From NCBI GenBank assembly GCA_963832025.1, contig CAWHSF010000003.1, positions 207,665-271,664 on the forward strand: a DNA stretch of 64,000 nt. Reading direction: 5' to 3'. The notes beneath the pieces were generated by a model. That model had not been told where the DNA came from, did no database searches, and saw only the letters and a program-made list of their open reading frames with translations. Source of the DNA: Candidatus Nomurabacteria bacterium (GTDB lineage: Bacteria; Patescibacteriota; Minisyncoccia; Phycocordibacterales; UBA9973). Shown piece by piece: positions 10,940 through 60,941 of the stretch (position 1 is the first letter of the stretch; each line of letters opens with the position of its first letter). The translations under genes were made by a program, and so were the position numbers.

Positions 10940-10953
10940 AAACTTAAAATTTA

Positions 10954-11023
10954 TCCCGTACTAAATTTTAATTAAAACAAATGAACACTATTATTAAAAA
11001 TTTAAAATTTTAGTACCGGGATG
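10954..11023 (+). repeat. intercistronic hairpin cassette, family G copy 1 (3' arm ends on ATG 11021)
   Basis: Left arm TCCCGTACTAAATTTTA (10954-10970). Right arm TAAAATTTTAGTACCGGGA (11003-11021), followed by TG. Starts 15 nt after the dnaN stop. Confidence 0.7.
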
Positions 11024-19937: not shown

Positions 19938-19943
19938 TATAAT
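19935..19943 (+). promoter_or_regulatory. extended -10 box TGaTATAAT upstream of polA
   Basis: Overlaps the tsaE stop codon. Followed by the family H hairpin and then ATG 19993. Confidence 0.4.
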
Positions 19944-19947
19944 TCCA

Positions 19948-19981
19948 CTTGTTGGACAACAATTTCCCGTTGTTCGACAAG
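19948..19981. repeat. family H palindromic repeat (degenerate copy) in polA leader
   Basis: CTTGTtggACAACaatttcccGTTGTtcgACAAG; compare 39233-39268 and 53515-53551. Confidence 0.55.
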
Positions 19982-19992
19982 AAAGACAAAAA

Positions 19993-22434
19993 ATGAAAAC
20001 GGAAAATAAAAATTCAACTAAAACAATGGTCCTATTAGATGCTCACGCGATAATACATCGCGCCTATCATGCGTTGCCGGAGTTTTTATCATCCAGCGGT
20101 GAACCTACTGGCGCTCTGTACGGGCTTTCCAGCATGTTGATGAAAATTATCACCGAACTCAAACCGGACTATATTGCTGCTTGTTATGATTTGCCGCAAA
20201 AAACTTTTCGTCACGAAGCTTATGATGCCTACAAAGCTGGCCGGGCAAAAACAGATGAAGCACTGGTGGTGCAACTAAAAAAATCCAGACAAATTTTTGA
20301 AGCTTTCAACATACCTATTTATGATGCCCCTGGTTTCGAGGCGGATGATGTTTTGGGAACAATCGTTGAAAAATATAAAAAAGACAAAAGCATCAATATC
20401 ATTATCGCTTCTGGAGACATGGATACGATGCAGTTGGTTGATGATAAGAAAGTTCAAGTTTACACTCTAAAAAAAGGAATCAATGAAACCATTTTATATG
20501 ACGAAGATGCAGTAATGGAACGTTTCCATTTCAAACCGAAACTTTTGCCGGACTACAAAGGTTTGCGTGGCGACCCATCGGATAACATTATTGGCATAAA
20601 AGGCATTGGAGAAAAAACAGCGGAAAATTTAATTGTCAATTTTGGAACCATCGAGGAAATATATAAAAAAATAAAAAAAGACAAAGAAGCTTTCGTGAAA
20701 GCAAACATAAGCCTCAGAATAATTGAATTATTGAAAGAGAACGAAGAGGAAGCTCTGTTTTCAAAAACATTAGCGACCATTCGCAAAGATGCGCCGATAA
20801 ATTTTACATTACCGGCAAAAACTTTTTGGGAAAACATTGACTCTAAAAAAGTGGAACAAGTTTTCATGGATTTTGAGTTTAAAAGTTTGATGGCTCGCTT
20901 GAAGAATTTTTTTAGCGAGAATTCGACGGGTGTTGCTCAGAGGAGTCTTCGCAACGACCAGAAAGAACTTGCCCTTCCAGGACGGGGTGCGAACGACGGC
21001 GAGCAATATCCACCGAATTCTCAAATCATTAATCCTCAAAAGTTGCAAGAAGCCAGCATTGTTCTTTGGCTCATCAATTCCGATATTTCTACTCCTGGCT
21101 TAGAAGATATGTATTTCTTTGCAAAGACTGAGTCTTTTGATGTGGCTTATGAGTACATTTTTAAACAGCTAAAAGAAAGAAAGTTAGATAAAGTATATGA
21201 AGAAATCGAAAAACCGATTATTGGTGTCGTAAAAAAGATGGAAGATTTTGGAATTCTGATAGATAAAAAATATTTTGAAAAATTATCTCTTGAATACCAC
21301 AAAGAATTGGATATTTTGACCAAAAACATTTACAAAATGGCTGGAACAGAATTTAATATTAATTCTCCAAAACAGCTAGGCGAAATTCTTTTTGGTAAGC
21401 TTGGCATGAAATCTGGTAAGAAAAAAAGTGCCAATGGTAGTTTTTCCACCAAGGTTTCCATTCTGGAAGACCTTGCCGAAGAAAATGAAATTATTAAAGA
21501 AATTTTAGCTTACAGAGAGTTACAGAAATTGCTTTCTACCTACGTTGATGTCATTCCAAAAATGGCAGGGCCAGATGGACGACTGCATTCAAAATTTATA
21601 CAAAATGCCACTACAACTGGCAGGTTTTCTTCAATTGACCCAAACTTGCAAAATTTACCAATTAAAACAGAATTAGGTAGAAGAATCCGTGGTGGTTTCG
21701 TAGCTTCCAAAAATCATAAGCTAGCAGCTTTTGATTATAGCCAAATTGAATTACGGGTGGCAGCGATACTTTCCGGAGACAAAAACATGACTGAAATATT
21801 CCGTGACCGCAAAGACATTCATGCCGGAGTCGCCTCTTTTGTTTTTGGTGTGCCGATAGAGCGTGTTGATAGTGAAATGCGTCGCCGAGCAAAAGTCATC
21901 AACTTTGGCATTATTTACGGCATGGGGGTTTCTGCCTTACGAAAAAATCTGGGAGGTACCCGTGAAGAAGCGCAAAAATTTTACGATAATTATTTTAATC
22001 AATTTTCTGGAGTGCGAGATTATTTAGAAAGCGTGAAAATGTTTGCTGCTAAAAATTCCTTTACAGAGACATTGTTTGGTCGTAGGCGTTACTTCCCAAA
22101 TATCAATTCCCGAATTCCTTTTTTGAAAAACACGGCTGAACGTACTGCGACCAATGCTCCACTGCAAGGCACAGCCGCTGATATTATCAAACTTGCTATC
22201 AGATACGCTGAAGAAGATTTAAATAAAAAAGGATTGCTTTCGAAAGTTCATCTCGTGCTTCAAATCCATGATGAACTGGTTTACGAAATAGAAGATGATG
22301 TTTTAGAAGAGGCTGATAAAATAATAAAGCAGGCGATGGAAGAGGTGCTAGAAAGATCATATTTGCATTACAAAACAGACATTCCTTTACTGGTTCGCTC
22401 TGGTTTTGGTGACAATTTTGGGGAAGTAAAATAA
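19993..22434 (+). CDS. polA: DNA polymerase I (5' nuclease + polymerase domains)
   Basis: 5'-nuclease N-terminus (LLDAHAIIHRAYHAL); polymerase motifs DYSQIELRV and QIHDELV. The ORF is open from 19828, but ATG 19993 follows tsaE. Confidence 0.9.
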   Translation: MKTENKNSTKTMVLLDAHAIIHRAYHALPEFLSSSGEPTGALYGLSSMLMKIITELKPDYIAACYDLPQKTFRHEAYDAYKAGRAKTDEALVVQLKKSRQIFEAFNIPIYDAPGFEADDVLGTIVEKYKKDKSINIIIASGDMDTMQLVDDKKVQVYTLKKGINETILYDEDAVMERFHFKPKLLPDYKGLRGDPSDNIIGIKGIGEKTAENLIVNFGTIEEIYKKIKKDKEAFVKANISLRIIELLKENEEEALFSKTLATIRKDAPINFTLPAKTFWENIDSKKVEQVFMDFEFKSLMARLKNFFSENSTGVAQRSLRNDQKELALPGRGANDGEQYPPNSQIINPQKLQEASIVLWLINSDISTPGLEDMYFFAKTESFDVAYEYIFKQLKERKLDKVYEEIEKPIIGVVKKMEDFGILIDKKYFEKLSLEYHKELDILTKNIYKMAGTEFNINSPKQLGEILFGKLGMKSGKKKSANGSFSTKVSILEDLAEENEIIKEILAYRELQKLLSTYVDVIPKMAGPDGRLHSKFIQNATTTGRFSSIDPNLQNLPIKTELGRRIRGGFVASKNHKLAAFDYSQIELRVAAILSGDKNMTEIFRDRKDIHAGVASFVFGVPIERVDSEMRRRAKVINFGIIYGMGVSALRKNLGGTREEAQKFYDNYFNQFSGVRDYLESVKMFAAKNSFTETLFGRRRYFPNINSRIPFLKNTAERTATNAPLQGTAADIIKLAIRYAEEDLNKKGLLSKVHLVLQIHDELVYEIEDDVLEEADKIIKQAMEEVLERSYLHYKTDIPLLVRSGFGDNFGEVK
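20917..21022 (+). repeat. family A palindrome-ended repeat, in-frame inside polA
   Basis: TIR GAGAATTCG...CGAATTCTC. The core matches the reverse complement of 24739-24830. Confidence 0.8.
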
Positions 22435-23699: not shown

Positions 23700-25949
23700 A
23701 TGCAAAAAAATATTTTTAAATTAAAGAATTTATGGGAACCAGCGGGGGATCAGCCGAAGGCTATTTCTAAGCTGGTAGAAGGTTTAGAGAAGGGAATGAA
23801 GAAACAAACATTGTTGGGCGCAACCGGAACTGGCAAAACTTTTACCATGGCCAATGTCATTGCGCAGTACAACAAACCGACGCTCGTAATAGCTCACAAC
23901 AAAACTCTGGCTGCCCAGCTCGCGCAAGAATTTCGCCAGTTTTTCCCCGATGCGGCCGTGCATTATTTTGTTTCTTATTATGACTATTATCAACCGGAAG
24001 CATATATGCCTGCTTCGGATACTTATATCGAAAAAGATGCTTCCATCAATAAAGAAATAGATATGCTTCGTCACGCCAGCACACAAGCATTACTTACCAG
24101 GCGTGACGTGATTATCGTCGCTTCGGTTTCCTGTATTTATGGGCTGGGTTCTCCCGAAGAATATGAAAAAGTAAATTTAAAACTTGAACTTGGCATGAAA
24201 CTGGACCGCATGACTTTAATGAGAAAACTGATTGAGATTCATTTTGAAAGAACCAACGCGGATTTGAGTCCAGGGCAATTTCGTTCGATTGGTTCGCGAG
24301 TGGAATTTATGCCGGTGTCGGAGACTGTCATGTATCAAATAGAATTTGGAACGTCGGACCTTAAGGGGATTCAAGGTCCGACGTTAACAAAAATAATCAA
24401 AGTTGATCCGGTATCCTCGAAAATAATCGAAGAAATAAAACCCGCCGAAGGACGGGCAGGCATTTTCATTTTTCCGGCAAAACATTTTATTACTGAAGAA
24501 GTAAAAAAGCAAAAGGCATTGATTGAAATTAAAAAAGAATTAAATAAACAATTGAAAAAATTTGAAAAAGAAGGAAAGTTGCTCGAAGCTGAGCGTATTA
24601 AGAGAAGAACAAACTATGACCTAGCGATGATTCGCGAAGTTGGTTATTGCAACGGCATCGAAAATTATTCTCGGCATCTGTCGGGTAAATTGGAAGGTGA
24701 ACCGCCAGAAACTCTGCTTTCATATTTTCCGCATAGGGCTCGAGATTATTCTCGCCGTCGTTCGCACTCCGTCCTGGAAGGGCAAGAAAGTTCTGGTCGC
24801 AACGAAGACTCCTCTGAGAACAATCTCGAACCCGATTTCCTTACGATTATAGATGAATCGCATGTTACACTTCCGCAACTGCAAGGCATGTATGCCGGAG
24901 ATGCTTCCAGAAAAGAAACCCTAGTAGAATATGGATTCAGATTGCCATCAGCTAAGGACAACAGACCCCTTAAATTTAATGAATTTGAAGAAAGAATAAA
25001 TAATGTAATTTATACTTCTGCCACACCTGGAGAATTTGAAAGATCTAATAGTAATCAAACAGTAGAACAGATAATCAGACCCACTGGTTTGGTTGATCCA
25101 GAAATAGAAGTAAAGTCGGTAAGCGAAAAAGAAGATTACAAGGGCCAAATTCAAGATTTTATTTTTGAGACAGAAAAAACAATCAAAAAAGGTTTCCGCG
25201 TTTTAGCGACCACCCTCACAAAAAAAATGGCGGAGGACCTCTCAACATATTTGAAGGATAAAAAAATCAAAGCGGAATATTTACATAGTGATATAAAAAC
25301 AATGGAACGAATAAAAATTCTCACTCAGTTTAGAAAAGGAGAATTTGATGTTTTGGTTGGAGTAAACTTACTTCGCGAGGGACTTGATTTACCTGAAGTT
25401 GCTTTAATCGGTATTTTAGATGCTGATAAATCCGGATTTTTACGTTCGGAAACAGCGCTAGTGCAAACCATCGGTCGCGCAGCCAGAAATAGCGAAGGAA
25501 AAGTTATTCTATATGCGGACATCATGACTCCGGCCATGGAATATGCTATTTCCGAAACTACTCGCCGGAGAAATATTCAGCTTGCTTATAATAAAAAACA
25601 TGGTATCACTCCGAAGACAATTATGAAAAAGATAAATGACATTACCGAAGAGTTGGAAAGTGAACATGGGAAAACAGTGAATGCGGAATTAAACCTTGAT
25701 TTGGAAGTTTTCAAACGAGCTTACGCCAAAGAGTTAAAATTAGACAAAAGTAAACTAACAAAAAAGAATGGACTAACTGAAGTTAAATTACACATGTCCG
25801 ACGAAGAGAGAAGCAACTTAGTCTATGAAAAAATAATAAAAATCAAGGAAAAAGAAATGAGTAAAGCAGTTAAAGAATTGGATTTCGAAACCGCAGCGAT
25901 TCTGCGTGATGAAATTGGAGTTTTGAAATTACGTTTGGAGAAAAAATAA
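23700..25949 (+). CDS. uvrB: excinuclease ABC subunit B
   Basis: GATGTGKTF; DESHVTLPQ; helicase C motifs; C-terminal UVR domain (FETAAILRDEI). Carries three inserted repeat segments. Confidence 0.95.
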   Translation: MQKNIFKLKNLWEPAGDQPKAISKLVEGLEKGMKKQTLLGATGTGKTFTMANVIAQYNKPTLVIAHNKTLAAQLAQEFRQFFPDAAVHYFVSYYDYYQPEAYMPASDTYIEKDASINKEIDMLRHASTQALLTRRDVIIVASVSCIYGLGSPEEYEKVNLKLELGMKLDRMTLMRKLIEIHFERTNADLSPGQFRSIGSRVEFMPVSETVMYQIEFGTSDLKGIQGPTLTKIIKVDPVSSKIIEEIKPAEGRAGIFIFPAKHFITEEVKKQKALIEIKKELNKQLKKFEKEGKLLEAERIKRRTNYDLAMIREVGYCNGIENYSRHLSGKLEGEPPETLLSYFPHRARDYSRRRSHSVLEGQESSGRNEDSSENNLEPDFLTIIDESHVTLPQLQGMYAGDASRKETLVEYGFRLPSAKDNRPLKFNEFEERINNVIYTSATPGEFERSNSNQTVEQIIRPTGLVDPEIEVKSVSEKEDYKGQIQDFIFETEKTIKKGFRVLATTLTKKMAEDLSTYLKDKKIKAEYLHSDIKTMERIKILTQFRKGEFDVLVGVNLLREGLDLPEVALIGILDADKSGFLRSETALVQTIGRAARNSEGKVILYADIMTPAMEYAISETTRRRNIQLAYNKKHGITPKTIMKKINDITEELESEHGKTVNAELNLDLEVFKRAYAKELKLDKSKLTKKNGLTEVKLHMSDEERSNLVYEKIIKIKEKEMSKAVKELDFETAAILRDEIGVLKLRLEKK
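24350..24385. repeat. 36-bp perfect hairpin in-frame inside uvrB
   Basis: AACGTCGGACCTT-aaggggattc-AAGGTCCGACGTT (13-bp perfect arms); encodes GTSDLKGIQGPT. Confidence 0.7.
24441..24460. repeat. short GC-rich hairpin in-frame inside uvrB
   Basis: CCCGccgaaggaCGGGcagg encodes PAEGRAG; shares its terminal CGGGCAGG with the yebC insert. Confidence 0.35.
24739..24830 (-). repeat. family A palindrome-ended repeat, in-frame inside uvrB (inverted relative to polA copy)
   Basis: TIR CTCGAGATT...AATCTCGAA. Encodes ...RARDYSRRRSHSVLEGQESSGRNEDSSENNLEP between conserved YFP and DFLTIIDESH. Confidence 0.8.
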
Positions 25950-33043: not shown

Positions 33044-34774
33044 TTGGATACTAAAAAAGAAAAACTGAATCAGCCTGGTCTTTTCGGTTTACTGAAACCG
33101 TACAAATTGCTGCTTTTTCTGCTGATTGTTTTTACAGTCATCGGCAATGGTTTCAACTTGATTGTGCCGAAAATTATCGCGCAGGCGATTGATACTTACA
33201 AGAAAGGCAATTTTTTTCTTAATCACTTAATCATAGAGTTTGCCGTAATTGCTATCCTTATTTTTATTTTTACCTATCTGCAAAACATTGTGCAAGTTTA
33301 TGTTTCCGAACGGGTAGCTCGCGATGTGCGCAATGACCTGACAGCAAAAATCTCGGTGCAGCAATATTCATACATCGAGCGTGTGACACCCGCCAAGCTT
33401 TTAACCAACCTTACTTCCGATGTTGATGCGATAAAAACTTTCGTTTCAACGGCGATTGCTTCTATTGTTGCTTCCTTTTTTTTGATTGTCGGAGCCGCCG
33501 TGCTCTTGCTTCTGATTGATTGGAGATTGGCGCTTGCCGTACTCATAATCGTACCGTTTATTGCGGTAACTTTTTTTTATGTTTTGACCAAGGTGCGAAA
33601 ACTTTTCTTGGAGTCGCAGAAGGCGATTGATTGGCTCAACAAAGTCATCAGTGAAAGTATTTTAGGTTCGGCGCTGATTAGATTACTTAATTCAAAAGAT
33701 ATCGAATATGAAAAATTTCTTCTGGCCAGCACGGAGGCGAAAAGAATTAGTCTGAATATTTTGGCTTTGTTTGCCAGTCTTATTCCGGTCATTACTTTTT
33801 TTACGAATCTCGCGACTCTCGTCATCGTAGTTTTGGGCGGACGCTTCGTAATTGAAGGGAACATGTCTCTTGGAAATTTTACCGCGTTCAACAGTTATTT
33901 AGCTATTCTTATTTTCCCGATTTTAATAATTGGTTTTATGACCAACGTTATTGCTTCCGCGCGAGCTTCCTATGGACGTATCTCGGAAGTTTTGTATGCG
34001 CCGGAAGAAAAGAAAAATGGTTTATTGAAAACTAAACTCCACGGCGACATTGAAGTAAATAACGTGACCGTTCTTTTTGGAGAAAAAGCAGCACTCAAGG
34101 ATGTCACTTTTTCCGTCCAGGCGGGAAGCAAAACTGCGATAATTGGTCCAACCGCGGCGGGTAAGACACAGCTATTGTACTTACTGACCGGACTTTTGAC
34201 TCCGACAGAAGGAACCATCAAAATAGACGGTCGAAACATCAACGAATACGACAAAGAGAGTCTGCACAGCCAAATTGGTTTTGTTTTTCAGGATAGCATT
34301 TTGTTTAATTTAAGTTTGCGGGAAAATATTGCTTTCAGTAATCTAGCCAAGGATGATTTTTTGGAAAAAGCGATAGATACCGCCGAGCTCCGGGATTTTA
34401 TCGATACTTTGCCGGACAAGCTCGACACAATCGTCTCCGAGAGAGGAACCAGTCTTTCCGGAGGGCAAAAACAGCGCATCATGCTAGCTCGCGCCTTGGC
34501 TCTCAATCCCAAAATACTCCTGCTTGATGATTTTACTTCTCGCGTGGACAACAAAACAGAATCTAAAATTCTAAGCAACATTACGCAAAATTATCCCGAA
34601 CTCACTCTTGTGTCGGTGACACAAAAAATACAGTCAATTGAACATTATGACCAAATTATTTTATTAATGGAGGGAGAGCTCCTGGCAAAGGGAACACATG
34701 AGGAACTTTTGTCTTCCTCTCCGGAATATGTGCAAATTTATGATTCACAAAAAAGCATAAACCAATATGAGTGA
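33044..34774 (+). CDS. ABC transporter, fused permease/ATPase (exporter half-transporter)
   Basis: 6-TM N-terminal domain; GPTAAGKTQ Walker A; LSGGQKQR signature; LLLDD Walker B. Confidence 0.85.
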   Translation: MDTKKEKLNQPGLFGLLKPYKLLLFLLIVFTVIGNGFNLIVPKIIAQAIDTYKKGNFFLNHLIIEFAVIAILIFIFTYLQNIVQVYVSERVARDVRNDLTAKISVQQYSYIERVTPAKLLTNLTSDVDAIKTFVSTAIASIVASFFLIVGAAVLLLLIDWRLALAVLIIVPFIAVTFFYVLTKVRKLFLESQKAIDWLNKVISESILGSALIRLLNSKDIEYEKFLLASTEAKRISLNILALFASLIPVITFFTNLATLVIVVLGGRFVIEGNMSLGNFTAFNSYLAILIFPILIIGFMTNVIASARASYGRISEVLYAPEEKKNGLLKTKLHGDIEVNNVTVLFGEKAALKDVTFSVQAGSKTAIIGPTAAGKTQLLYLLTGLLTPTEGTIKIDGRNINEYDKESLHSQIGFVFQDSILFNLSLRENIAFSNLAKDDFLEKAIDTAELRDFIDTLPDKLDTIVSERGTSLSGGQKQRIMLARALALNPKILLLDDFTSRVDNKTESKILSNITQNYPELTLVSVTQKIQSIEHYDQIILLMEGELLAKGTHEELLSSSPEYVQIYDSQKSINQYE

Positions 34775-36554
34775 TTATTCATTAAACAAAACAGACATAG
34801 CGAAAGAAAAGGAAAAAGGAGTATTAATTACCGCCTGGCGTAGACTTGTGCCCTTGATGAAAGAGGAAGGGCGCTCGGTCACTTTTGCTCTCATTGCAAT
34901 ACTCGTGTCTTCGGCGGCGACGCTTATTGTTCCGATTATTATCGGACACATTGTGGATGTTTATCTGCAAAGCAAAAATTTTCACGGAGTGGTGGTTTTT
35001 TCCGTCATTCTGGCGGGGGTGTATATCGTCGGACTGATTGCGAGCTATATTCAAGTAAAGACTATGGGTGGAGTGGGAAGGCGATTACTTTTCAATTTAC
35101 GCAATAAAATTTTTGAAAAACTAGAAGAACTTCCTTTGGCATTTTTTAATCAAAACAAAGAAGGGGACATTATTTCACGTATCAACAACGACACGGACAA
35201 ATTAAATCAATTTTTTTCCCAAGCCTTGATGCAATTTATCGGTAACATCGTATTGATTATCGGCACCGGAATATTTCTCTTGGTTATCAATATTCGTCTG
35301 GGGAGTGTCGCCCTAGTTCCTGCCATCATAGCGCTGGGCGCGACCCAATTACTTTCTCCTTGGGTAAAACGTACAAGTTTGCGCAGTTTGCGGACCTTGG
35401 GCAGTATGAGCGGTGAAATTTCCGAAAGTATCAATAATTTTAAAGTGATTGTCGCCTTCAATCGGTTGGATTATTTCCGAGATAAATTCAGAGAATCTAA
35501 TGATTTAAACTACAAGGCATCTGTTTCAGCCGGAATCGCCAGCAACGTTTTTAATCCTCTATACGCCCTGGCGGGAGTGCTGGGGCAAATCGGCGTTTTG
35601 GCTTATGGTATTTATTTAATTTCCATCGGCAATTTTACGATTGGTTTACTCATCAGTTTTCTGCTTTATGTAAACAATTTTTACAACCCATTGCGACAAC
35701 TCGCTTCAGTTTGGCCATCGCTCCAGCTTGCCTTAGCTGGATTGGATCGCATCTCCGAGGTTTTATCGCTCGAGTCAAATATGAAAATATTATCTCCCGG
35801 GGAAGAGCGAAATTCTCCAATACTTTCTACTTCTTCGGCGACACTTGAATTCAAAAATGTGTATTTCAGATATTCGGACGGTAAGGAAGTTTTGAAAAAT
35901 ATTAATTTCAAATTGGAAAAAGGGAAAACTTATGCCTTCGTTGGTCCAACCGGTGGCGGCAAGACCACAACAGCTTCGCTCATGGCGCGATTATACGACC
36001 CGACGAAGGGAGAGGTGTACCTGGAGGGCAAAGATATCAAGTATTATGAATCGGATGAAAGAACAAAAAAAATCGGCTTTATTCTGCAGGAACCATTTTT
36101 GTTTACTGGCACAGTTTATGAAAATATTCTCTATGGCAACAAAGAACATTCCGGATATTCACGGGAACAATTGGAAGACGTGTTGGAGAAAGCCAATCTG
36201 GGGAAATTACTATCGCGGTTTTCCGAAGGTTTGGATACGAAAATTTTTCCGGGTGGCGGAGCCATCAGTTTGGGGCAAAGACAGCTCATCGCTTTCATGC
36301 GTGCGGTTTTACGCAATCCCGATGTTTTAATTCTGGACGAAGCCACTGCCAACATTGATACGGTTACCGAGCAACTACTAGAAGACATTTTGAAAAAATT
36401 ACCGGTAAACACGACTCGGATTATCATTGCGCATCGTCTGAACACGATTGAAAGCGCCGATGAAATATTCTTTGTGAATGGAGGAGAAGTGATTCCTGCC
36501 GGAGACATGAAACATGCCGTTGAAATGCTTCTGCACGGCAAAAGACAAAGCTAG
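34767..36554 (+). CDS. ABC transporter, fused permease/ATPase (partner half-transporter)
   Basis: GPTGGGKTT Walker A; signature-like LGQRQL; ILDEATA Walker B. Overlaps the upstream gene by 8 nt. Confidence 0.85.
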   Translation: MSDYSLNKTDIAKEKEKGVLITAWRRLVPLMKEEGRSVTFALIAILVSSAATLIVPIIIGHIVDVYLQSKNFHGVVVFSVILAGVYIVGLIASYIQVKTMGGVGRRLLFNLRNKIFEKLEELPLAFFNQNKEGDIISRINNDTDKLNQFFSQALMQFIGNIVLIIGTGIFLLVINIRLGSVALVPAIIALGATQLLSPWVKRTSLRSLRTLGSMSGEISESINNFKVIVAFNRLDYFRDKFRESNDLNYKASVSAGIASNVFNPLYALAGVLGQIGVLAYGIYLISIGNFTIGLLISFLLYVNNFYNPLRQLASVWPSLQLALAGLDRISEVLSLESNMKILSPGEERNSPILSTSSATLEFKNVYFRYSDGKEVLKNINFKLEKGKTYAFVGPTGGGKTTTASLMARLYDPTKGEVYLEGKDIKYYESDERTKKIGFILQEPFLFTGTVYENILYGNKEHSGYSREQLEDVLEKANLGKLLSRFSEGLDTKIFPGGGAISLGQRQLIAFMRAVLRNPDVLILDEATANIDTVTEQLLEDILKKLPVNTTRIIIAHRLNTIESADEIFFVNGGEVIPAGDMKHAVEMLLHGKRQS

Positions 36555-36557
36555 GCA

Positions 36558-36660
36558 GCTCAAAATATATTTTATAAAGCAATCTATCTCCGCAAGCTTG
36601 CGGAGCGAACCTGCTCGGCTACCCGCCTGCGCAAGACTTTCTAAAACATATTTTCTGAGC
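36558..36660 (+). repeat. family F intergenic palindromic element, copy 2
   Basis: Outer TIR GCTCAAAATATATTTTATAAAG / CTTTCTAAAACATATTTTCTGAGC. Inner palindrome CTCCGCAAGCTTGCGGAG (36588-36605). The core is identical to copy 1. Confidence 0.75.
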
Positions 36661-36670
36661 TACTTAAATT

Positions 36671-36698
36671 AAAAAACCACCCGAGAGGGTGGTTTTTT
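36671..36698. terminator. bidirectional Rho-independent terminator
   Basis: AAAAAACCACCC-gaga-GGGTGGTTTTTT, between convergent ABC gene and cspA. Confidence 0.8.
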
Positions 36699-36711
36699 AT
36701 TAGAGAGAATA

Positions 36712-36909
36712 TTATGCGCGTTGAACGTTCACAGCATTCAATCCTTTTGGTGATTGTTCTGTTTCGAAAGAAACAGTATCACCTTCATGCAACTCATCAA
36801 AGGTTACTCCAACCAAAGAATTGCTGTGGAAGAATAAATCCTTCTGTAAGCCTTCTCCAGTAATGAAGCCGAAACCTTTATCTGTCAATCTTTTTATTGT
36901 ACCAGTCAT
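36712..36909 (-). CDS. cspA: cold-shock protein (CspA family)
   Basis: 65 aa; KGFGFI (RNP1) and cold-shock domain. Confidence 0.9.
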   Translation of the reverse strand: MTGTIKRLTDKGFGFITGEGLQKDLFFHSNSLVGVTFDELHEGDTVSFETEQSPKGLNAVNVQRA

Positions 36910-37059
36910 TGATTTTTTTGTTTAAGTTATTAAGTACAAACAGATATCCCTTAGAAATCGACTCTTTTCGAACCTGCTTTGTGCATGAAGTATATCATAA
37001 AATAGCCTGATTTGTCAAGGTACCTTTCTATTTTACCCTAAATAAGCTAGTCTGTATAA

Positions 37060-38590
37060 ATGGCAAAAGAAGAAGGCGGAAGGGAGAAAAACAAGGAAAC
37101 AATAGTCAGATTTGAAAATGTCTCATTTGAATGGGGAGTAACATAAGCCTATTTTAGAAGAGGTGAGCTTCACCATTCGGCGAGGCATGAAACTCACGTT
37201 GATGGGGCAAAATGGCGCTGGAAAAAGCACCATTTTTAGTTTAATCTCTGGGCTATCGGTCCCTGAGTCTGGAATAATCAACGTTGTTAAAGGGGTGAGT
37301 ATCGCAAACTCCTTGCAAGTAATTCCTCGCGACCAAATGGATTCTACTGTACGAGAATTTTTCGCAAATTGTTTTAAGGAAAAAGTTTATGATATTGACC
37401 CACGGATTGATGACATTTTAGAAGTAGTAAACCCCCACACCAAAAATTTTGGTGTGGGGGTAAATCTTAAGGGTCACGCGAAAATTCACGACAGAAAAAT
37501 AAATACTTTCTCTGGTGGGCAACAAGCGCGACTGCTTTTGGCTTCCGCCCTCATTCGAGATCCAGATTTACTATTATTGGATGAACCAACAAACAATTTA
37601 GACAAAGCCGGAATTGCTCACCTCACAAATTTTCTAGTAAATTACAAAAAAACAGTTCTAGTTATTTCCCACGATGCGGAATTTTTAAATGCTTTCACTG
37701 AAGGAGTGCTTTATTTAGATGTTTATACAAAAAAAGTTGAACAATATGTCGGTAACTATTTTAATGTGATGAAAGATATTACTGCGCGAGTAGAAAAAGA
37801 AAATATGAAGAACGCACAACTTCAAAAGGAAATTCAAGCCAAGAAAGACCAAGCAAATGTGTTTGCATATAAAGGCGGACGTTTGAGATTGGTAGCAAAG
37901 CGAATGCGAGAAAAGGCTGAAGAATTGGAAGAGGAAATTGTGGACGTTCGAAAAGAAGATAAAGCCATCAGGCCTTTTGTTATTCCTTCACAGCCAGACT
38001 TGATCGGGGAAATTTTAAACATCTCTTCTTTTACCACGATGGTGAATGGAAAAATTGTAAAACGGAAAGCACGTATTTCTTTAAATAAAAAACAACATTT
38101 GCTTTTACAAGGACCAAACGGAATTGGAAAAACAACACTCTTGGAAAGACTGGCGAGCGGAAAAGCCGAAGGAGAGAAAGTAAAAGAGGGAATACGTATC
38201 GGATATTATAGGCAAGATTTTTCCACGCTCAATTTTGAACATTCAGTTTATGAATCTTTGGCAGAAGCGATGATTGAGGGTGGAGAAAAATTAAATGAGG
38301 AACATATGCGTTCAGTTGCCGCGGGATTTTTAATTACTGGAGAATTTATTCGCACAAAAATTAAAGATTTATCCGAAGGACAAAAAGGGCTAGTGGCTTT
38401 TGCGAGATTGGTTTTACAAAAACCCGGACTCCTCATTTTGGATGAGCCAACAAACCATATAAATTTTCGTCACTTGCCAATAATCGCAGAAGCATTAGAT
38501 AAATATGCCGGTGCAATGATTCTCGTTTCCCACGTGCCCGAATTCGTCAAACAAATTAGGATTGATGAAGTACTTGATCTAGAAAAGTAG
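37060..38590 (+). CDS. ABC-F family ATPase, N-terminus displaced by a +1 frame change near 37138-37144
   Basis: MAKEEGGREKNKETIVRFENVSFEWGV (ATG 37060) stops at 37144. The +1 frame continues HKPILEEVSFTIRRGMKLTLMGQNGAGKST. Second module GPNGIGKTT. No TM domains. Confidence 0.8.
37431..37470 (+). repeat. family E hairpin repeat, in-frame inside the ABC-F gene
   Basis: ACCCCCACACCAAAA-a-TTTTGGTGTGGGGGT plus the flank AAATCTTAA; encodes NPHTKNFGVGVNLK. Confidence 0.7.
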
Positions 38591-45034: not shown

Positions 45035-48000
45035 TTATTCTTGTACTGTTGTTGTGGTAGTTTTCTTTCCGAGAGGTTGATGATCTACAACAGTGGTAGT
45101 TCTTTTGATAAAAGGAGCTGTGGGCGGTGGAAGATATGCTGGATTTATTTTTCTTTGTCCGTAAATATATTTTGCTAACAATATCAATATAAGAATAAGT
45201 ATGATTATGATAAGCCAACCAAATATATTTGTCGGGAAGAAGCCAGCTCCGAAAGCGAATGCTCCAAGAGGGGAGGTCGTTCCGGTTGTTGCACTCCATA
45301 CTTGAGCGGAAACATTCGCATTGACTGATTGAGAATTACCGGAAGGGTCAACATAGTTTAAGGTTGCAGGGAAGTTGAGCAATGTGCCTGCGGTTGCGTC
45401 GCTGTTTACCTGTGTTTTTACTGTTACCACACCGGAAGCTCCTCCTCTAAGTGTTCCCAAGTTGAATACCAAAGTATTTCCGAGAACATTAGGATTGATT
45501 GGGTTCGATGAAAGATAAGTTACTTCTTGTGGCAACACTAACTGCAAACTTAGATTGGTAGCAGATCCTGTTCCGACATTTTGATAATTTATAGTGTAAT
45601 TAATTTCATCTCCTGGGTGTGGTCTGGTGTTGTCAATTGTAGGAACAATCGGTTGGTCTCTATTTACCGAAGAAGTAATAAGAAGAAGTGAACTTGCAGC
45701 TGTCCTGTTTACATATCTGATTACTGTCGTCGGACTCTGTGCCCCAGTTGTGGTAAAGCTTAATATATAACCATTACTACTTTGATAGGAATCTTGCGCA
45801 ATTGCTCGGAAGTAATAAGTTGTTCCAGGGCTTAATCCACTCAATGTGTCTGTGTGTATAACCGATGGCAATGTTCCGACAGCTGTGGTTGTAGTCGTAT
45901 TTCCCAAATTTATAGTTGGGCCCCACTCAAACCAAGCATTTATTGGGCTGGAATCAGAACTGCTAATTAAGGAGTTCAATTGTGCACTGGTGCTTAATAC
46001 TTGTGTTGCTTGCGTGGTGACGACACTTAGATTGCTTGCTATTGGTTGTGGATATATTGGTGTTGGAACGGGATATACCGGAACTATTGGTTGATAGTTT
46101 TGATTTACATAAACAGTGGTTGAACCAGTCGCTTGCTGTCCGGTGCTACTAGTACAAACAATATTGTAAGTAGTTGTATAAGTTAGAGCTCCAGTAGTTA
46201 TACTGCCGGAAGTACTTTGTGTTCCGGAAAGTCCATTGTAACCACCAGTAATACTACAATAACTTGCGTTAGTTGAGTTCCAAGAAATAATACTGGAACC
46301 ATTATAGTTGACACTGGAAGGATTTGCGTAAATGTTGACGGTAGGTTGCAAAATTTGATTTTGATTTACATAAACAGTGGTTGAACCAGTCGCTTGCTGT
46401 CCGGTGCTACTAGTACAAACAATATTGTAAGTAGTTGTATAAGTTAGAGCTCCAGTAGTTATACTGCCGGAAGTACTTTGTGTTCCGGAAAGTCCATTGT
46501 AACCACCAGTAATACTACAATAACTTGCGTTAGTTGAGTTCCAAGAAATAATACTGGAACCATTGTAGTTGACACTGGAAGGATTTGCGTAAATGTTGAC
46601 GGTAGGAATCTGGTTTTGAATTTGATTTACCGACACCGTCGCTGAAGCACTTACTTGTGTTCCATTGGTTCCATAACAAGTAATTGAATAGGTTGTAGTT
46701 CCACTTGGTACTACAACTCCGGAACCACTAGTTGCTGTACTGGAAGTCCAGTAAGCCTGACAAGATGTTGCGTTATTTGAACTCCAAGTAAGTGTAGAGT
46801 TTGCTCCGGATTGGATGGAAGTTGGGTTGGCGTAAAGAGAAACGGTTGGGTTTTGATATTGAATCTGATTTACCGACACCGTCGCTGAAGCACTTACTTG
46901 TGTTCCATTGGTTCCATAACAAGTAATTGAATAGGTTGTAGTTCCACTTGGTACTACAACTCCGGAACCACTAGTTGCTGTACTGGAAGTCCAGTAAGCC
47001 TGACAAGATGTTGCGTTATTTGAACTCCAAGTAAGTGTAGAGTTTGCTCCGGATTGGATGGAAGTTGGGTTGGCGTAAAGAGAAACGGTTGGGTTTTGAT
47101 ATTGAATCTGATTTACCGACACCGTCGCTGAAGCACTTACTTGTGTTCCATTGGTTCCATAACAAGTAATTGAATAGGTTGTAGTTCCACTTGGTACTAC
47201 AACTCCGGAACCACTAGTTGCTGTACTGGAAGTCCAGTAAGCCTGACAAGATGTTGCGTTATTTGAACTCCAAGTAAGTGTAGAGTTTGCTCCGGATTGG
47301 ATGGAAGTTGGGTTGGCGTAAAGAGAAACGGTTGGGTTTTGATATTGAATCTGATTTACCGACACCGTCGCTGAAGCACTTACTTGTGTTCCATTGGTTC
47401 CATAACAAGTAATTGAATAGGTTGTAGTTCCACTTGGTACTACAACTCCGGAACCACTAGTTGCTGTACTGGAAGTCCAGTAAGCCTGACAAGATGTTGC
47501 GTTATTTGAACTCCAAGTAAGTGTAGAGTTTGCTCCGGATTGGATGGAAGTTGGGTTGGCGTAAAGAGAAACGGTTGGGTTTTGAATCTGTTGCGCTGCT
47601 ACTGTTACCGTCGCATATGCGGAAGCTTGTGCTCCGGTACTGCTGGTACAAGTAAGATTGTAAGAAGTTGTATTAGCTAAAGCTCCAGTATTAAAACTAC
47701 CGGAAGTATTTTGATTTCCTCCCCAACCATTTGTACCACCACTTGCGATGCAAGATGTTGCGTTGGTGGAATTCCAAGTTAAGATACTTGTTCCATTGTA
47801 AGCTACGGAAGTTGGATTAGCGGAAAGAGAAACTGTCGGCTGAACCTGACCACTCACTGACACCGTCGCATAGGCGGAAGCTTGTGCTCCGGTACTGCTG
47901 GTACAAGTAAGATTGTAAGAAGTTGTATTAGCTAAAGCTCCAGTATTAAAACTACCGGAAGTATTTTGATTTCCTCCCCAACCATTTGTACCACCACTTG

Positions 48001-48967
48001 CGATGCAAGAAGTTGCGTTAGTAGAATTCCAAATTAACGTACTTGTTCCATTGTAAGCTACGGAAGTTGGATTAGCGGTTAAACTGACAGTTGGGGTTTT
48101 TATCTGTTGAGTTACCGACACCGTCGCTGAAGCACTTACTTGTGTTCCATTGGTTCCATAACAAGTAATTGAATAGGTTGTAGTTCCACTTGGTACTACA
48201 ACTCCGGAACCACTAGTTGCTGTACTGGAAGTCCAGTAAGCCTGACAAGATGTTGCGTTATTTGAACTCCAAGTAAGTGTAGAGTTTGCTCCGGATTGGA
48301 TGGAAGTTGGGTTGGCGTAAAGAGAAACGGTTGGGTTTTGAATCTGTTGCGCTGCTACTGTTACCGTCGCATATGCGGAAGCTTGTGCTCCGGTACTGCT
48401 GGTACAAGTAAGATTGTAAGAAGTTGTATTAGCTAAAGCTCCAGTATTAAAACTACCGGAAGTATTTTGATTTCCTCCCCAACCATTTGTACCACCACTT
48501 GCGATGCAAGATGTTGCGTTGGTGGAATTCCAAGTTAAGATACTTGTTCCATTGTAAGCTACGGAAGTTGGATTAGCTGTAAGGTTAACGGTTGGTGTAA
48601 CTACAGTAGGTTGGCAAGAAGCGGTAGTAAAAGAAACCATACTTCCGGACCATGATCCTTGAGGGGCATTGTTGAATTCTGTTTCATAATAATATGTAGT
48701 GTTTTGAGTGAGACCATTTATTACGGCACTGAAATCCGAATACGCAGTATAAGTTTGAGGAGTCGTGGAATATCCGAGAGATGGAGTAGGTCCCCATTCA
48801 AACCAAGCTGAAGTCGGAGTTCCGTTTGGACTTACGTAGCCATTTAAGGTTGCGCTGTTGCAAGTCTGCACTTGATATTGTGCTGCTGCTTTGTTTACAT
48901 TAATAAAAAGCCCGAAAACGGTAACGAAAACGATAAACATGGATATTGATAACTTTTTCATATTCAT
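45035..48967 (-). CDS. giant cell-surface repeat protein (signal peptide, FN3-like ends, 10 Ig-like tandem repeats, DUF11-like domain, C-terminal TM anchor)
   Basis: 1310 aa. N-terminal MNMKKLSISMFIVFVTVFGLF. Two ...WFEWGPT... modules. Three repeat types (A x3, B x5, C x2). C-terminal WLIIIILILILILLAKY anchor. Confidence 0.8.
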   Translation of the reverse strand: MNMKKLSISMFIVFVTVFGLFINVNKAAAQYQVQTCNSATLNGYVSPNGTPTSAWFEWGPTPSLGYSTTPQTYTAYSDFSAVINGLTQNTTYYYETEFNNAPQGSWSGSMVSFTTASCQPTVVTPTVNLTANPTSVAYNGTSILTWNSTNATSCIASGGTNGWGGNQNTSGSFNTGALANTTSYNLTCTSSTGAQASAYATVTVAAQQIQNPTVSLYANPTSIQSGANSTLTWSSNNATSCQAYWTSSTATSGSGVVVPSGTTTYSITCYGTNGTQVSASATVSVTQQIKTPTVSLTANPTSVAYNGTSTLIWNSTNATSCIASGGTNGWGGNQNTSGSFNTGALANTTSYNLTCTSSTGAQASAYATVSVSGQVQPTVSLSANPTSVAYNGTSILTWNSTNATSCIASGGTNGWGGNQNTSGSFNTGALANTTSYNLTCTSSTGAQASAYATVTVAAQQIQNPTVSLYANPTSIQSGANSTLTWSSNNATSCQAYWTSSTATSGSGVVVPSGTTTYSITCYGTNGTQVSASATVSVNQIQYQNPTVSLYANPTSIQSGANSTLTWSSNNATSCQAYWTSSTATSGSGVVVPSGTTTYSITCYGTNGTQVSASATVSVNQIQYQNPTVSLYANPTSIQSGANSTLTWSSNNATSCQAYWTSSTATSGSGVVVPSGTTTYSITCYGTNGTQVSASATVSVNQIQYQNPTVSLYANPTSIQSGANSTLTWSSNNATSCQAYWTSSTATSGSGVVVPSGTTTYSITCYGTNGTQVSASATVSVNQIQNQIPTVNIYANPSSVNYNGSSIISWNSTNASYCSITGGYNGLSGTQSTSGSITTGALTYTTTYNIVCTSSTGQQATGSTTVYVNQNQILQPTVNIYANPSSVNYNGSSIISWNSTNASYCSITGGYNGLSGTQSTSGSITTGALTYTTTYNIVCTSSTGQQATGSTTVYVNQNYQPIVPVYPVPTPIYPQPIASNLSVVTTQATQVLSTSAQLNSLISSSDSSPINAWFEWGPTINLGNTTTTTAVGTLPSVIHTDTLSGLSPGTTYYFRAIAQDSYQSSNGYILSFTTTGAQSPTTVIRYVNRTAASSLLLITSSVNRDQPIVPTIDNTRPHPGDEINYTINYQNVGTGSATNLSLQLVLPQEVTYLSSNPINPNVLGNTLVFNLGTLRGGASGVVTVKTQVNSDATAGTLLNFPATLNYVDPSGNSQSVNANVSAQVWSATTGTTSPLGAFAFGAGFFPTNIFGWLIIIILILILILLAKYIYGQRKINPAYLPPPTAPFIKRTTTVVDHQPLGKKTTTTTVQE
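46101..46622 (-). repeat. 2 x 261-bp near-identical tandem coding repeat (type C)
   Basis: tgatttacataaacagtggttgaacc... recurs at 46101 and 46362. Confidence 0.85.
46624..47585 (-). repeat. 4 x 243-bp tandem coding repeat (type B), apparently identical at nucleotide level
   Basis: gatttaccgacaccgtcgctgaagc... starts at 46624, 46867, 47110 and 47353. Units 2 and 3 read identical by eye. Confidence 0.9.
47586..48600 (-). repeat. interleaved type A / type B repeat units (A3, A2, B1, A1) with long identical stretches
   Basis: ttgaatctgttgcgctgctactgttaccgtcgcatatgcgg occurs near 47580 and again near 48320. Confidence 0.75.
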
Positions 48968-60851: not shown

Positions 60852-60869
60852 TAGAGCCTTAGAGAAATG

Positions 60870-60941
60870 CCCTCGTAGTTCAATGGATAGAACAGAGCTC
60901 TTCTAAGGCTTCGATGTAGGTTCGATTCCTACCGAGGGCAC
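60870..60941 (+). tRNA. tRNA-Arg (anticodon UCU)
   Basis: Acceptor GCCCTCG/CGAGGGC; anticodon loop CTTCTAA; T-arm GTAGG-TTCGATT-CCTAC. Confidence 0.9.

What the first reader, a model, noticed from the sequence alone, without database searches (positions are those of the whole stretch)
36558..36660. Family F ~100-bp intergenic palindromic element with covarying central palindrome
There are three copies (30622-30719, 36558-36660, and an inverted one at 32607-32720). They share ...AAAGCAATCTATCT-[18-bp perfect palindrome]-GCGAAC(C)TGCTCG...CCTG(C/T)GCAAG(A/G)C... and have long A/T-rich inverted termini. The central palindrome differs between copies but is perfect in each: CTGGCAAAGCTTTGCCAG, CTCCGCAAGCTTGCGGAG and CTGGCGAAGCTTCGCCAG, all centred on AAGCTT. 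Copy 3 carries an extra ~50-nt insertion. Two copies fill convergent gene ends; one lies between rpsT and the thioredoxin-like gene. This is REP/MITE-like behaviour, or a small structured RNA.
Basis: seen in the sequence. Interest (0 to 1): 0.6.

Follow-up and report, generated by a model that had tools for sequence, protein, structure and literature searches.

The report
Structured palindromic repeat family in CPR bacteria
The three elements are real copies of an apparently undescribed family of hairpin-shaped repeats found between and even inside genes of the tiny-genome Patescibacteria (CPR); they behave like the selfish palindromic elements of Rickettsia but keep a conserved three-way fold on one strand.

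Summary
The window holds three copies: c1 30613-30728, c2 36557-36661 and c3 32595-32735 (inverted). There is no Rfam match and no match in E. coli genomes, plasmids or phages.

A core pattern found at least 119 loci in GTDB species genomes. Nearly all are Patescibacteria MAGs (Nomurabacteria/Paceibacterota).

Each copy is a long stem (median about 29-33 bp) whose outer part is specific to its locus. The stem carries a conserved three-way-junction head. All helices covary: 93% of cells are paired, 25 of 27 pairs show double changes, and 0 of 500 shuffles reach this.

Copy 3's "insertion" is a conserved, covarying long-form hairpin present in about half of the copies.

The elements occupy 67 different gene neighbourhoods. 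They are present or absent at orthologous sites, flip orientation there, and switch between short and long forms. They also sit in frame inside the dus and M1-aminopeptidase genes. There are no target-site duplications and no family-wide terminal repeats.

Best reading: a non-autonomous, structure-defined selfish repeat, like RPE or ERIC, acting through a single-stranded form. The mobilising machinery is unknown. A host-functional small RNA is not excluded.

The parts
36557..36661 (-). Copy c2 (the finding), short form. The whole palindrome lies between the ABC-transporter stop codon (36552-36554) and the terminator at 36668-36700.
   Evidence: Sequence. CM hit 36564-36652, minus strand, 85.5 bits. 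The minus strand folds at -42.2 against -30.8 kcal/mol for the plus strand.
36557..36580 (-). c2 P1, 3' arm on the folded strand. It pairs with 36636-36661.
   Evidence: Fold. P1 pairs covary across the family.
36636..36661 (-). c2 P1, 5' arm on the folded strand. It includes the conserved G of the G·A mismatch (UAGAAAG/CUUUAUA).
   Evidence: column pair 12/144: GA in 65 of 115 copies, AT in 38.
36588..36605 (-). c2 P3, the 'central palindrome' CTCCGCAAGCTTGCGGAG: a 7-bp stem with a 4-nt loop.
   Evidence: Five of the seven pairs show many double changes across 114 distinct copies.
36581..36587 (-). c2 junction strand J3/1 (AUAGAUU on the folded strand), unpaired and near-invariant.
   Evidence: Alignments A2, A3 and A6. 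This stretch was part of the search pattern, so its invariance is partly due to how copies were found.
36606..36635 (-). c2 J2/3 plus P2 (36610-36614 with 36631-36635) plus the P2b hairpin (36617-36627).
   Evidence: The P2 pair at columns 22/103 is G-C in 92 copies and U-A in 21. The P2b pairs covary.
30613..30728 (-). Copy c1, short form. It fills the whole spacer between the convergent SpoU and Fpg genes; the outermost pairs are the two stop codons (TAG 30613-30615, CTA 30726-30728).
   Evidence: CM hit 30627-30715, minus strand, 84.4 bits. The position is orthologous in at least 8 other species.
32595..32735 (+). Copy c3, long form, between rpsT and the thioredoxin-like gene. Here the folded strand is the sense strand.
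   Evidence: -50.4 against -36.7 kcal/mol. CM hit 32602-32728, plus strand, 79.8 bits. The orthologous site is filled in 7 other genomes and empty in 2.
   Evidence: Conserved and covarying in 56 long-form copies.

Best explanation
Family F is a non-autonomous repeat defined by its structure. It is confined to Patescibacteria (Nomurabacteria/Paceibacterota) and behaves as selfish DNA in the manner of Rickettsia palindromic elements and ERIC.

Anatomy (shown). Each copy is a long stem P1, median about 29-33 bp. The inner ~10 bp of P1 are family-wide and the outer part is locus-specific. P1 carries a conserved three-way-junction head:
- P2 with a variable tip P2b, either short or a 48-nt long form.
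- P3, a covarying 7-bp hairpin.
- Near-invariant unpaired junction strands: GUUCG, AUAGAUU and a GCA/GA internal loop.

Behaviour (shown).
- The family has colonised many intergenic spacers and some permissive protein loops.
- It is gained or lost at orthologous sites.
- Heads are swapped between loci: short and long forms alternate, orientation flips, and P3 variants are shared inside one genome.
- Stems evolve in place with compensatory changes.

Mechanism (inferred).
- The head is recognised as a single strand of fixed polarity. This is most likely single-stranded DNA exposed in replication or repair, or possibly an RNA copy.
- An unidentified trans-acting enzyme does the recognising. It inserts the element or copies it between existing copies.
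- For the host the effects are by-products. Any transcript crossing a copy acquires a 30-bp or longer RNA duplex, a likely RNase III substrate or 3'-end block. A gene hit in frame gains 27-50 residues.
For: Real family:
- At least 119 exact-core loci in GTDB species genomes, almost all Patescibacteria. The few non-CPR and viral pattern hits that I re-tested got no significant covariance-model match.

Structure:
- 93.3% of cells are paired, 25 of 27 pairs have double changes, and 0 of 500 shuffles reach this. Sliding the partners drops pairing to 31-60%.

Fixed polarity independent of the host gene:
- G·U:A·C is 186:10, or 74:10 without one conserved U·G pair.
- The ratio is 25:3 where the fold is antisense to both neighbours and 15:0 where it is sense.
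- The whole-element MFE is lower on that strand in 114 of 115 copies. For the arms alone the count is 87 against 27.
- Conserved G·A and tandem G·A/A·G mismatches lie on that strand.

Dispersal:
- 112 copies lie in 67 neighbour contexts; 46 contexts are unique and 21 are shared by two or more species.
- Copies occur in co-directional, convergent and divergent spacers, close to the background proportions.

Insertion polymorphism:
- The rpsT|trx site is filled in the window and in 7 genomes. It is empty in L022 (TAATG overlap) and in L094. In L003 and L034 it holds a divergent sub-family.

In-frame insertions in real genes:
- Dus is filled in L048, L076, L080 and L088 and empty in L078.
- Peptidase_M1 is filled in L045 and empty in L107.

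Head exchange:
- Every well-sampled orthologous site has both short and long forms, and a minority of copies are flipped, for example 8:1, 6:2 and 5:2.
- The P3 variant CGCAAAGCTTTGCG occurs four times, all in one assembly.

The same window holds other palindromic families, inserted in frame in UvrA, UvrC, PolA and UvrB.

RPE, ERIC and Correia behaviour is as summarised in PMC10969869.
Against: - No transposase, HUH enzyme or recombinase was found next to copies. The flanking ORF clusters are housekeeping genes.
- There is no target-site duplication and no family-wide terminal repeat, so no known transposition chemistry is indicated.
- Palindromy continues past the sub-family arms into unique flank. 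Simple cut-and-paste does not explain this.
- The unpaired junction strands are extremely conserved. Pairing is also kept by compensatory changes at orthologous sites, even inside dus, where the coded amino acids change. This looks like selection on a function, not only on mobility.
- Copy number is modest: 3 in 64 kb, and at least 7 in one assembly.
- Copies were found with an exact 20-base pattern. Intact copies are therefore over-represented and the pattern positions are invariant by construction.
- No population data show an ongoing insertion.
Confidence: 0.5

Rival explanations
1. A multi-copy, host-functional small structured RNA, such as a protein-sponging or scaffold RNA, a processing signal or a ribozyme. 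It would be made from the folded strand, and its three-way junction would be the active part. Dispersal and in-gene copies would be secondary.
For: The architecture is typical of functional RNAs:
- Covarying helices surround near-invariant junction nucleotides.
- A peripheral hairpin varies in length.
- There is a conserved U·G pair, and tandem G·A pairs alternate with Watson-Crick pairs.
- The fold has a fixed polarity independent of the host gene direction.
- Copies are kept at orthologous sites across species, with compensatory changes.
- No known family matches, so it would be new.
Against: - The folded strand is antisense to both neighbours in 27 of 37 independent co-directional contexts. 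It is often wedged within 25 nt of both genes, leaving no room for its own promoter.
- No consistent promoter or terminator accompanies the window copies.
- Copies sit antisense inside coding genes.
- Orthologous sites can be empty.
- Orientation flips at the same site.
- Several unrelated palindromic families behave the same way in the same genome.
Confidence: 0.27
2. A cis-acting mRNA or operon element maintained by the host: a terminator or insulator between convergent genes, a 3'-end stabiliser, or an RNase III processing site that uncouples cistrons.
For: - Two of the three window copies, and 24% of family copies, lie between convergent genes, against 15% of all spacers.
- Stems of 30 bp or more would form in transcripts of either strand.
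- Correia and ERIC elements are known to be processed by RNase III or RNase E (PMC10969869).
Against: - The structure is optimised on one element strand regardless of which strand is in the mRNA, and that strand is more often the antisense one.
- c2 lies beside a separate canonical terminator.
- Copies occur inside operons (atpD|atpC), in divergent promoter spacers and inside ORFs.
- No U-tract follows the stem.
- The conserved asymmetric head is unnecessary for a plain duplex signal.
Confidence: 0.15
3. A double-stranded DNA site for a dimeric protein (an operator, a nucleoid protein site or a restriction-modification site) centred on the AAGCTT palindrome.
For: All three window copies have a perfect 18-bp palindrome centred on AAGCTT.
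Against: - By my count from the list, 38% of family copies lack AAGCTT.
- The arms of the palindrome vary freely as long as they stay complementary. A sequence-reading protein would not tolerate this.
- The G·U over A·C asymmetry cannot arise in duplex DNA.
- The conserved flanks are asymmetric.
Confidence: 0.03

Closest known systems
Rickettsia palindromic elements (RPE)
   Same: Both are ~100-150-bp hairpin-forming repeats in a reduced genome. Both comprise several families per genome and occur in intergenic spacers and in frame inside housekeeping genes. Both are kept at orthologous positions in related species, and for both the mobilising enzyme is unknown (PMC10969869; here).
   Different: The phylum is different and no sequence relationship has been shown. 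Here only a minority of the copies found lie in genes. The element has a branched three-way head with near-invariant junctions and a locus-specific outer stem. The head shows strand-specific structural selection, flips and form switching, which to my knowledge are not described for RPEs.
ERIC (enterobacterial repetitive intergenic consensus)
   Same: Both are imperfect palindromes of similar size that are highly conserved in sequence across species. Both occur in either orientation in transcribed spacers, have variants with internal insertions, are occasionally intragenic, and have copy numbers that vary by lineage.
   Different: There is no sequence similarity: no hit in 5,426 E. coli genomes. 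ERIC is conserved along its whole length, whereas here the outer stem differs at every locus.
Correia/NEMIS elements and classical bacterial MITEs
   Same: Both are small, non-coding, multi-copy elements that form long hairpins in transcripts. Correia hairpins are cut by RNase III.
   Different: MITEs have family-wide terminal inverted repeats and target-site duplications and derive from an IS. None of these was found here.
REP/REPIN elements with RAYT, and IS200/IS605-derived palindrome-associated elements
   Same: Both are recognised as folded single strands of fixed polarity. Conserved unpaired bases lie next to a hairpin, there is no target duplication and no terminal inverted repeat, and orientation is biased relative to replication.
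   Different: REPs are 20-40-nt hairpins with a 5' GTAG. IS200/IS605 active strands sit on the lagging-strand template, whereas here the folded strand is mostly on the C-rich strand (43 of 67 contexts). No Y1/HUH gene was seen in the flanks.
Parvovirus/AAV terminal hairpins (a shape analogy only, from my own knowledge)
   Same: Both have a long stem capped by two small hairpins (a T- or Y-shaped three-way junction). In both, the asymmetric head exists in two inverted 'flip/flop' orientations relative to the stem.
   Different: These elements are chromosomal and internal, not replicon ends. No Rep-type nickase is known here, and the resemblance was not tested.

Membership tests
Any Rfam RNA family | Covariance-model match at the gathering score, or at least a suggestive E-value | tested here: not met
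   At the gathering threshold the window gives only 5 tRNAs. At E<=10 over 30000-37500, only noise hits touch the elements (MIR8562, ODC_IRES).
Classical MITE | Target-site duplication flanking the element | tested here: not met
   The longest direct repeats at the stem boundaries of 114 copies have the same distribution as shuffled left/right pairings.
Classical MITE | Terminal inverted repeats shared by all copies and by a parent IS | tested here: not met
   Only the inner ~10 bp of P1 are family-wide and the outer arms are locus-specific. One sub-family shares ~30-nt arms. No IS or transposase was found in 945 flanking ORFs.
Classical MITE | Small, non-coding, multi-copy and dispersed | tested here: met
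   At least 119 loci. 112 copies lie in 67 contexts.
REP/REPIN | A 20-40-nt imperfect hairpin with a conserved 5' GTAG, often as inverted doublets, with a RAYT gene in the genome | tested here: not met
   The element is 105-141 nt with a branched head. GTAG appears only in one P2b variant (GGCGGGTAGCC). The presence of a RAYT gene could not be tested genome-wide.
RPE-like selfish palindromes (behavioural class) | In-frame insertion into functional protein genes, with empty orthologues | tested here: met
   Dus: 348 aa filled against 330 aa empty. Peptidase_M1: 906 aa against 827 aa. The Pfam domains are intact on both sides of the insertion.
RPE (the Rickettsia families themselves) | Sequence homology to RPE consensus sequences; host genus Rickettsia | not tested
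   No RPE consensus was available in the tools. The hosts here are Patescibacteria, so membership is not claimed.
ERIC | Sequence similarity to the 127-bp ERIC consensus found in enterobacteria | tested here: not met
   No blastn match (word size 11) in 20,395 E. coli records.
Integron attC | R'' RYYYAAC ... R' GTTRRRY core sites at the base of the hairpin | tested here: not met
   The nearest strings are AGCGAAC and GTTCGCT. They violate the consensus and lie in the head, not at the base.
Structured RNA (generic) | Helices supported by compensatory changes | tested here: met
Structured RNA (generic) | The folded strand is transcribed as a defined RNA | not testable with these tools
   No expression data were available. 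The promoter scan is uninformative.

The most novel reading that the evidence does not exclude
The conserved three-way head is an active single-stranded module: either a new class of functional RNA, or the substrate of a new structure-specific DNA-mobility system. It would 'home' into, be copied between and flip within long palindromic stems. This would explain the locus-specific arms, palindromy that extends into unique flank, the absence of target duplications, short/long head swapping, and two unrelated heads (family F and the GGGTCCCAC family) at exactly the same position in dus. It would be a mobility or gene-conversion mechanism not described for bacterial repeats. It would also be a major shaper of proteins in CPR genomes, which are otherwise thought to be almost free of mobile DNA.
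Probability: 0.2. Interest if true: 0.85.

Novelty: new variant of a known kind. Interest (0 to 1): 0.62.

Why it matters
CPR/Patescibacteria have some of the smallest, most streamlined bacterial genomes and are usually described as poor in mobile DNA. This family, together with at least three other palindromic families in the same 64 kb, fills intergenic spacers and adds 27-50 residues to housekeeping proteins. The affected genes are dus and an M1 aminopeptidase for family F, and PolA, UvrA, UvrB and UvrC for the other families.

- The Rickettsia 'selfish DNA in protein-coding genes' phenomenon would therefore have an independent counterpart in a distant reduced-genome lineage.
- The strand-specific, covarying three-way junction gives a concrete handle (a covariance model) to annotate these elements. 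That would help avoid mis-called ORFs and mis-assemblies in MAGs.
- It also offers a way to look for the unknown enzyme or RNA-binding partner.
- If the head proves to be a functional RNA or a new homing substrate, it would be a new class.

Tried and rejected
1. Known RNA families: Rfam at the gathering threshold and at E<=10 gave nothing.
2. Known annotated DNA: blastn against E. coli genomes, plasmids and phages gave no match. The viral contig scan gave 2 hits that the covariance model rejects.
3. Literature: eight full-text searches covered CPR repeats, CPR structured RNAs, MITEs in Parcubacteria, the motif strings themselves, and RPE together with CPR. None mentions this element. The large MITE census PMC11602168 does not mention Patescibacteria.
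4. Peptide census. I tried to find proteins carrying the element in frame by searching 5.8 billion proteins with a profile of the element-encoded peptide. The second returned only 5 tiny hypothetical ORFs. The method was uninformative, since it did not even recover the L045 aminopeptidase.
5. Peptide-coding reading.
6. Target-site duplications: none.
7. Partner gene in the flanks. Clustering 945 ORFs gave only housekeeping genes. A DGR-type reverse transcriptase occurs in 4 loci but is not adjacent to copies.
8. Own promoter or terminator: no consistent sites.
9. attC, dif, hammerhead and T-loop resemblances were checked by eye against the consensus sequences and dropped.
10. The idea that one stem arm is an inverted copy of host flank. 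The empty dus site keeps GAACATATC, which is suggestive. The rpsT|trx empty sites do not support it, so it is left open.

Full report
**1. The observation**

- c1 and c2 are direct copies, 85% identical over 84 nt. c3 is inverted, with 93% complementarity over 41 nt.
- The 14-mer AAAGCAATCTATCT occurs exactly three times.
- Each copy has a perfect 18-bp palindrome that differs between copies and is centred on AAGCTT.
- The palindromic termini are longer than reported: c1 is 30613-30728, c2 is 36557-36661 and c3 is 32595-32735. In c1 the outermost pairs are the stop codons of the two convergent genes.
- Pfam confirms the neighbours: SpoU methylase | Fpg (convergent), ABC transporter | CspA (convergent), and ribosomal protein S20 followed by a thioredoxin/glutaredoxin-like gene.
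- A canonical bidirectional terminator (36668-36700) lies between c2 and cspA, so c2 is not itself that terminator.
- A covariance model built later finds no further copy in the 64 kb, even at E<=10.

**2. It is not a known family**

- Rfam 15 gives only tRNAs at the gathering threshold and only noise at E<=10.
- There is no blastn match in 5,426 E. coli genomes, so it is not ERIC or REP. PLSDB plasmids and INPHARED phages also give no match.
- Eight full-text literature searches found no description, including searches for the motif strings themselves.
- A census of MITEs in 183,232 genomes does not mention Patescibacteria.

**3. It is a large family in CPR bacteria**

- The pattern AAGCAATCTATCT-N10-20-AGCGAAC hit at least 119 loci in one-genome-per-species GTDB.
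- Nearly all hits are MAGs labelled Nomurabacteria, Paceibacterota, Minisyncoccia, 'Patescibacteria group' or, in third-party bins, Saccharibacteria.
- The Verrucomicrobia, Chloroflexi and two viral pattern hits that I re-tested, plus one further odd-spacing hit (L119), got no significant match with the covariance model.
- The window's own proteins are 70-98% identical to those of these MAGs in a syntenic block: SpoU, Fpg, RuvA, S20, Trx, CspA. The window therefore comes from a Nomurabacteria-like genome.
- Up to 7 exact-core copies were seen in one assembly (JAZKJK01), which is a lower bound.

**4. Anatomy**

- Of 101 distinct copies, 48 are short form (89-nt core) and 53 are long form (127-nt core). 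It is a conserved AU-rich hairpin whose pairs covary, for example one pair is C-G in 31 copies, A-U in 13 and U-A in 11.
- On the folded strand the element reads as follows:
  - P1 5' arm, ending in GC;
  - C;
  - P2 (UUGC);
  - GCA;
  - P2b (short GGCU-GACG-AGCC, or the long hairpin);
  - GA;
  - P2' (GCAG);
  - UUCG;
  - P3 (CU + 5 bp, loop AGCU/AGCA/AGUA, 5 bp + AG);
  - AUAGAUU;
  - P1 3' arm, beginning with GC.
- P1 is long: a median of 33 pairs when 40-nt flanks are allowed, and 29 contiguous. Only its inner ~10 bp are family-wide. It usually fills the spacer completely.

**5. The structure is under selection, or an equivalent process**

- On 114 distinct CM-aligned copies, 93.3% of cells are standard pairs, against 73.8% in shuffles.
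- 25 of 27 pairs have changes on both sides, and 0 of 500 shuffles reach any of the measures.
- Sliding the partners by 1-3 columns drops pairing to 31-60%. RNAalifold on MAFFT alignments agrees.
- Caveats. The 20 pattern positions are invariant by construction. The copies are related. Quasi-palindrome template switching could produce some arm 'compensation' without selection.

**6. Which strand**

- G·U:A·C is 186:10 over all pairs, or 74:10 without one conserved U·G.
- A conserved G·A mismatch in P1, and tandem G·A/A·G pairs that alternate with Watson-Crick pairs in P1 and in the long hairpin, would be pyrimidine-pyrimidine clashes on the other strand.
- The arms alone are more stable on this strand in 87 copies against 27. 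The whole element is more stable in 114 of 115, by a mean of 8.2 kcal/mol.
- In the window this is the minus strand for c1 and c2 and the plus strand for c3.
- The polarity does not depend on the host. G·U:A·C is 25:3 where the fold is antisense to both neighbours and 15:0 where it is sense. The energy difference is the same in all four context classes.

**7. Where the copies sit**

- 112 copies lie in 67 different neighbour-gene contexts: 46 are unique and 21 are shared by two or more species.
- They occur in co-directional (58%), convergent (24%) and divergent (17%) spacers. The background is 70/15/15%.
- Contexts include the inside of operons (atpD|atpC) and the regions upstream of dnaJ, dnaK and yqeY.
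- The folded strand is more often antisense. After collapsing orthologous sites, 27 co-directional contexts are antisense against 10 sense (p=0.008).
- By the same collapsed count, 43 contexts lie on the C-rich strand against 24 (p=0.03).
- In the window, dnaA and dnaN lie at 8.3-10.9 kb and the GC skew is positive to their right. c1 and c2 therefore have the folded strand on the leading-strand template.

**8. Mobile-element behaviour**

(a) Presence and absence. The rpsT|trx site is filled in the window and in L011, L020, L024, L038, L051, L067 and L086. In L022 the two genes overlap (TAATG), and in L094 they are 2 nt apart. L003 and L034 carry a divergent sub-family in homologous arms: the inner P1 is GGGG/CCCC, P3 is TTTTTTGAAGCTTAAAAAA, and P2b is the same.

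(b) In-frame insertions.
- Dus carries the element after GNPWLF in L048, L076, L080 and L088, coding ...EHISKSNLSGATAPANFSARQPAKGFSQYVPS... L078 Dus lacks it.
- An M1 aminopeptidase carries it between the catalytic and ERAP1_C domains in L045. L107 lacks it.
- A decayed copy lies in UvrD of L085.
- Inside dus the P3 stem changes with compensation (GGTGT/ACACC against GGCGC/GCGCC) while the coded residues change (VAT against ATA).

(c) Head exchange.
- At every well-sampled orthologous site both short and long forms occur, and a minority of copies are flipped: 8:1, 6:2, 5:2 and 5:1. c3 of the window is such a flip, because it is sense where the orthologues are antisense.
- The P3 variant CGCAAAGCTTTGCG occurs four times, all in assembly JAZKJK01.
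- In L036, dus carries a different palindromic family at the same position.

(d) A sub-family with ~30-nt shared arms (AAACTCTTTCTTGGCATAC.../...GTACGCCTGCGACGAGTTT) is present at many loci of one genome and of many genomes.

(e) Missing hallmarks. There are no target-site duplications. No transposase-like gene was found among 945 flanking ORFs.

**9. Interpretation**

- The behaviour matches selfish palindromic repeats of the RPE/ERIC type (features as summarised in PMC10969869). I put this first, at a confidence of 0.5.
- The element cannot be filed under MITE, REP, ERIC or attC, because the defining features that were tested are not met.
- The fixed-polarity, covarying three-way junction with conserved unpaired strands means that some machinery reads one strand of the element. 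Whether that strand acts as single-stranded DNA or as RNA is inferred, not shown.
- The same features keep the rival alive: a host-functional small RNA family, at 0.27. Against it stand the antisense bias, the lack of room for promoters, the in-gene antisense copies, the empty orthologous sites and the flips.
- A primary role as a terminator, stabiliser or RNase III site (0.15) does not explain why the fold is optimised on the element's own strand rather than on the transcribed one. Such effects are nevertheless likely by-products.
- A duplex protein-binding site (0.03) is contradicted by the free variation of the stem and by the G·U asymmetry.

**10. What remains unexplained**

- Why does palindromy continue beyond the shared arms into unique flank?
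- Why do two unrelated heads occupy the same dus position?
- Why does the empty dus site keep one arm-like sequence (GAACATATC), while the empty rpsT|trx sites do not?

These observations suggest homing into, or conversion within, pre-existing palindromes, or growth of the palindrome by template switching. They motivate the 'novel case'.

Noticed in passing
window 26509-26600 and 29193-29288; also L036 within dus (about 1340-2368): A second palindromic repeat family, with head ...CCCTTC-[stem]-GAGTAC-[stem]-G(G/T)GGGTCCCAC... It lies in frame inside UvrA (ORF 26256-28760) and UvrC (ORF 28834-29826). A member sits in dus of L036 at the same position where family F sits in four other species.
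   Followed up: partly
window 20917-21022 and 24736-24835: A third, GC-rich hairpin family. One copy lies inside PolA (ORF 19828-22434, between the 5'-3' exonuclease and polymerase domains). An inverted copy lies inside UvrB (ORF 23700-25949). The plus strand folds far better for the PolA copy (-45.2 kcal/mol, z -4.2) than for the UvrB copy (-33.2, z -0.8), so this family is again strand-asymmetric.
   Followed up: partly
window 10951-11024 and 28766-28836: A fourth hairpin repeat (ATCCCGTACTAAAATTT...AAATTTTAGTACCGGGAT). One copy lies just after dnaN and one in the UvrA|UvrC spacer.
   Followed up: no
window 8286-10939: dnaA and dnaN are adjacent, so the replication origin region is probably in the window. 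GC skew is positive on the plus strand from about 18 kb onward.
   Followed up: partly
window 28834-30142: uvrC is split. ORF 28834-29826 stops inside the UvrC RNase H domain (profile positions 11-49), and ORF 29855-30142 continues it (63-159). This could be a frameshift, a stop codon, a further small insertion or a sequencing error.
   Followed up: no
window 60927-61240: A perfect tandem duplication of 157 nt begins in the 3' end of the tRNA at 60869-60940. Each unit contains a 35-nt inverted repeat (GGGCACAAAAATAAGCGGAGCATATTTTTGTGCCC). It could be an att-like duplication or an assembly artefact.
   Followed up: no
window 45035-48967: A 1310-aa ORF with DUF11 and Ig-like repeats. It contains long near-identical tandem DNA repeats of 243 and 261 nt, and is probably a surface protein.
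   Followed up: no
L011 1096-2097, L027 4919-5962, L030 2282-3409, L118 2850-3777: A reverse transcriptase of ~330-375 aa (Pfam RVT_1) with an LPLGNLTSQ motif that resembles diversity-generating-retroelement enzymes. It recurs near the cspA/rpsT region in four related genomes, is not adjacent to family F copies, and is split into two ORFs in L118.
   Followed up: partly
L003 about 1892-2020; L034 6186-6273: A divergent sub-family of the element occupies the rpsT|trx site in arms homologous to those of family F. It keeps the P2b hairpin and the AAGCTT-centred P3 but has different junction strands and a GGGG/CCCC inner P1. It scores only 29 bits with the model, so the true family is wider than the exact-pattern census.
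   Followed up: partly
window 36668-36700: A canonical bidirectional intrinsic terminator (AAAAAACCACCCGAGAGGGTGGTTTTTT) lies between c2 and cspA. Rfam's cspA thermoregulator model gives a sub-threshold hit over the cspA region (36.7 bits against a gathering score of 78).
   Followed up: no
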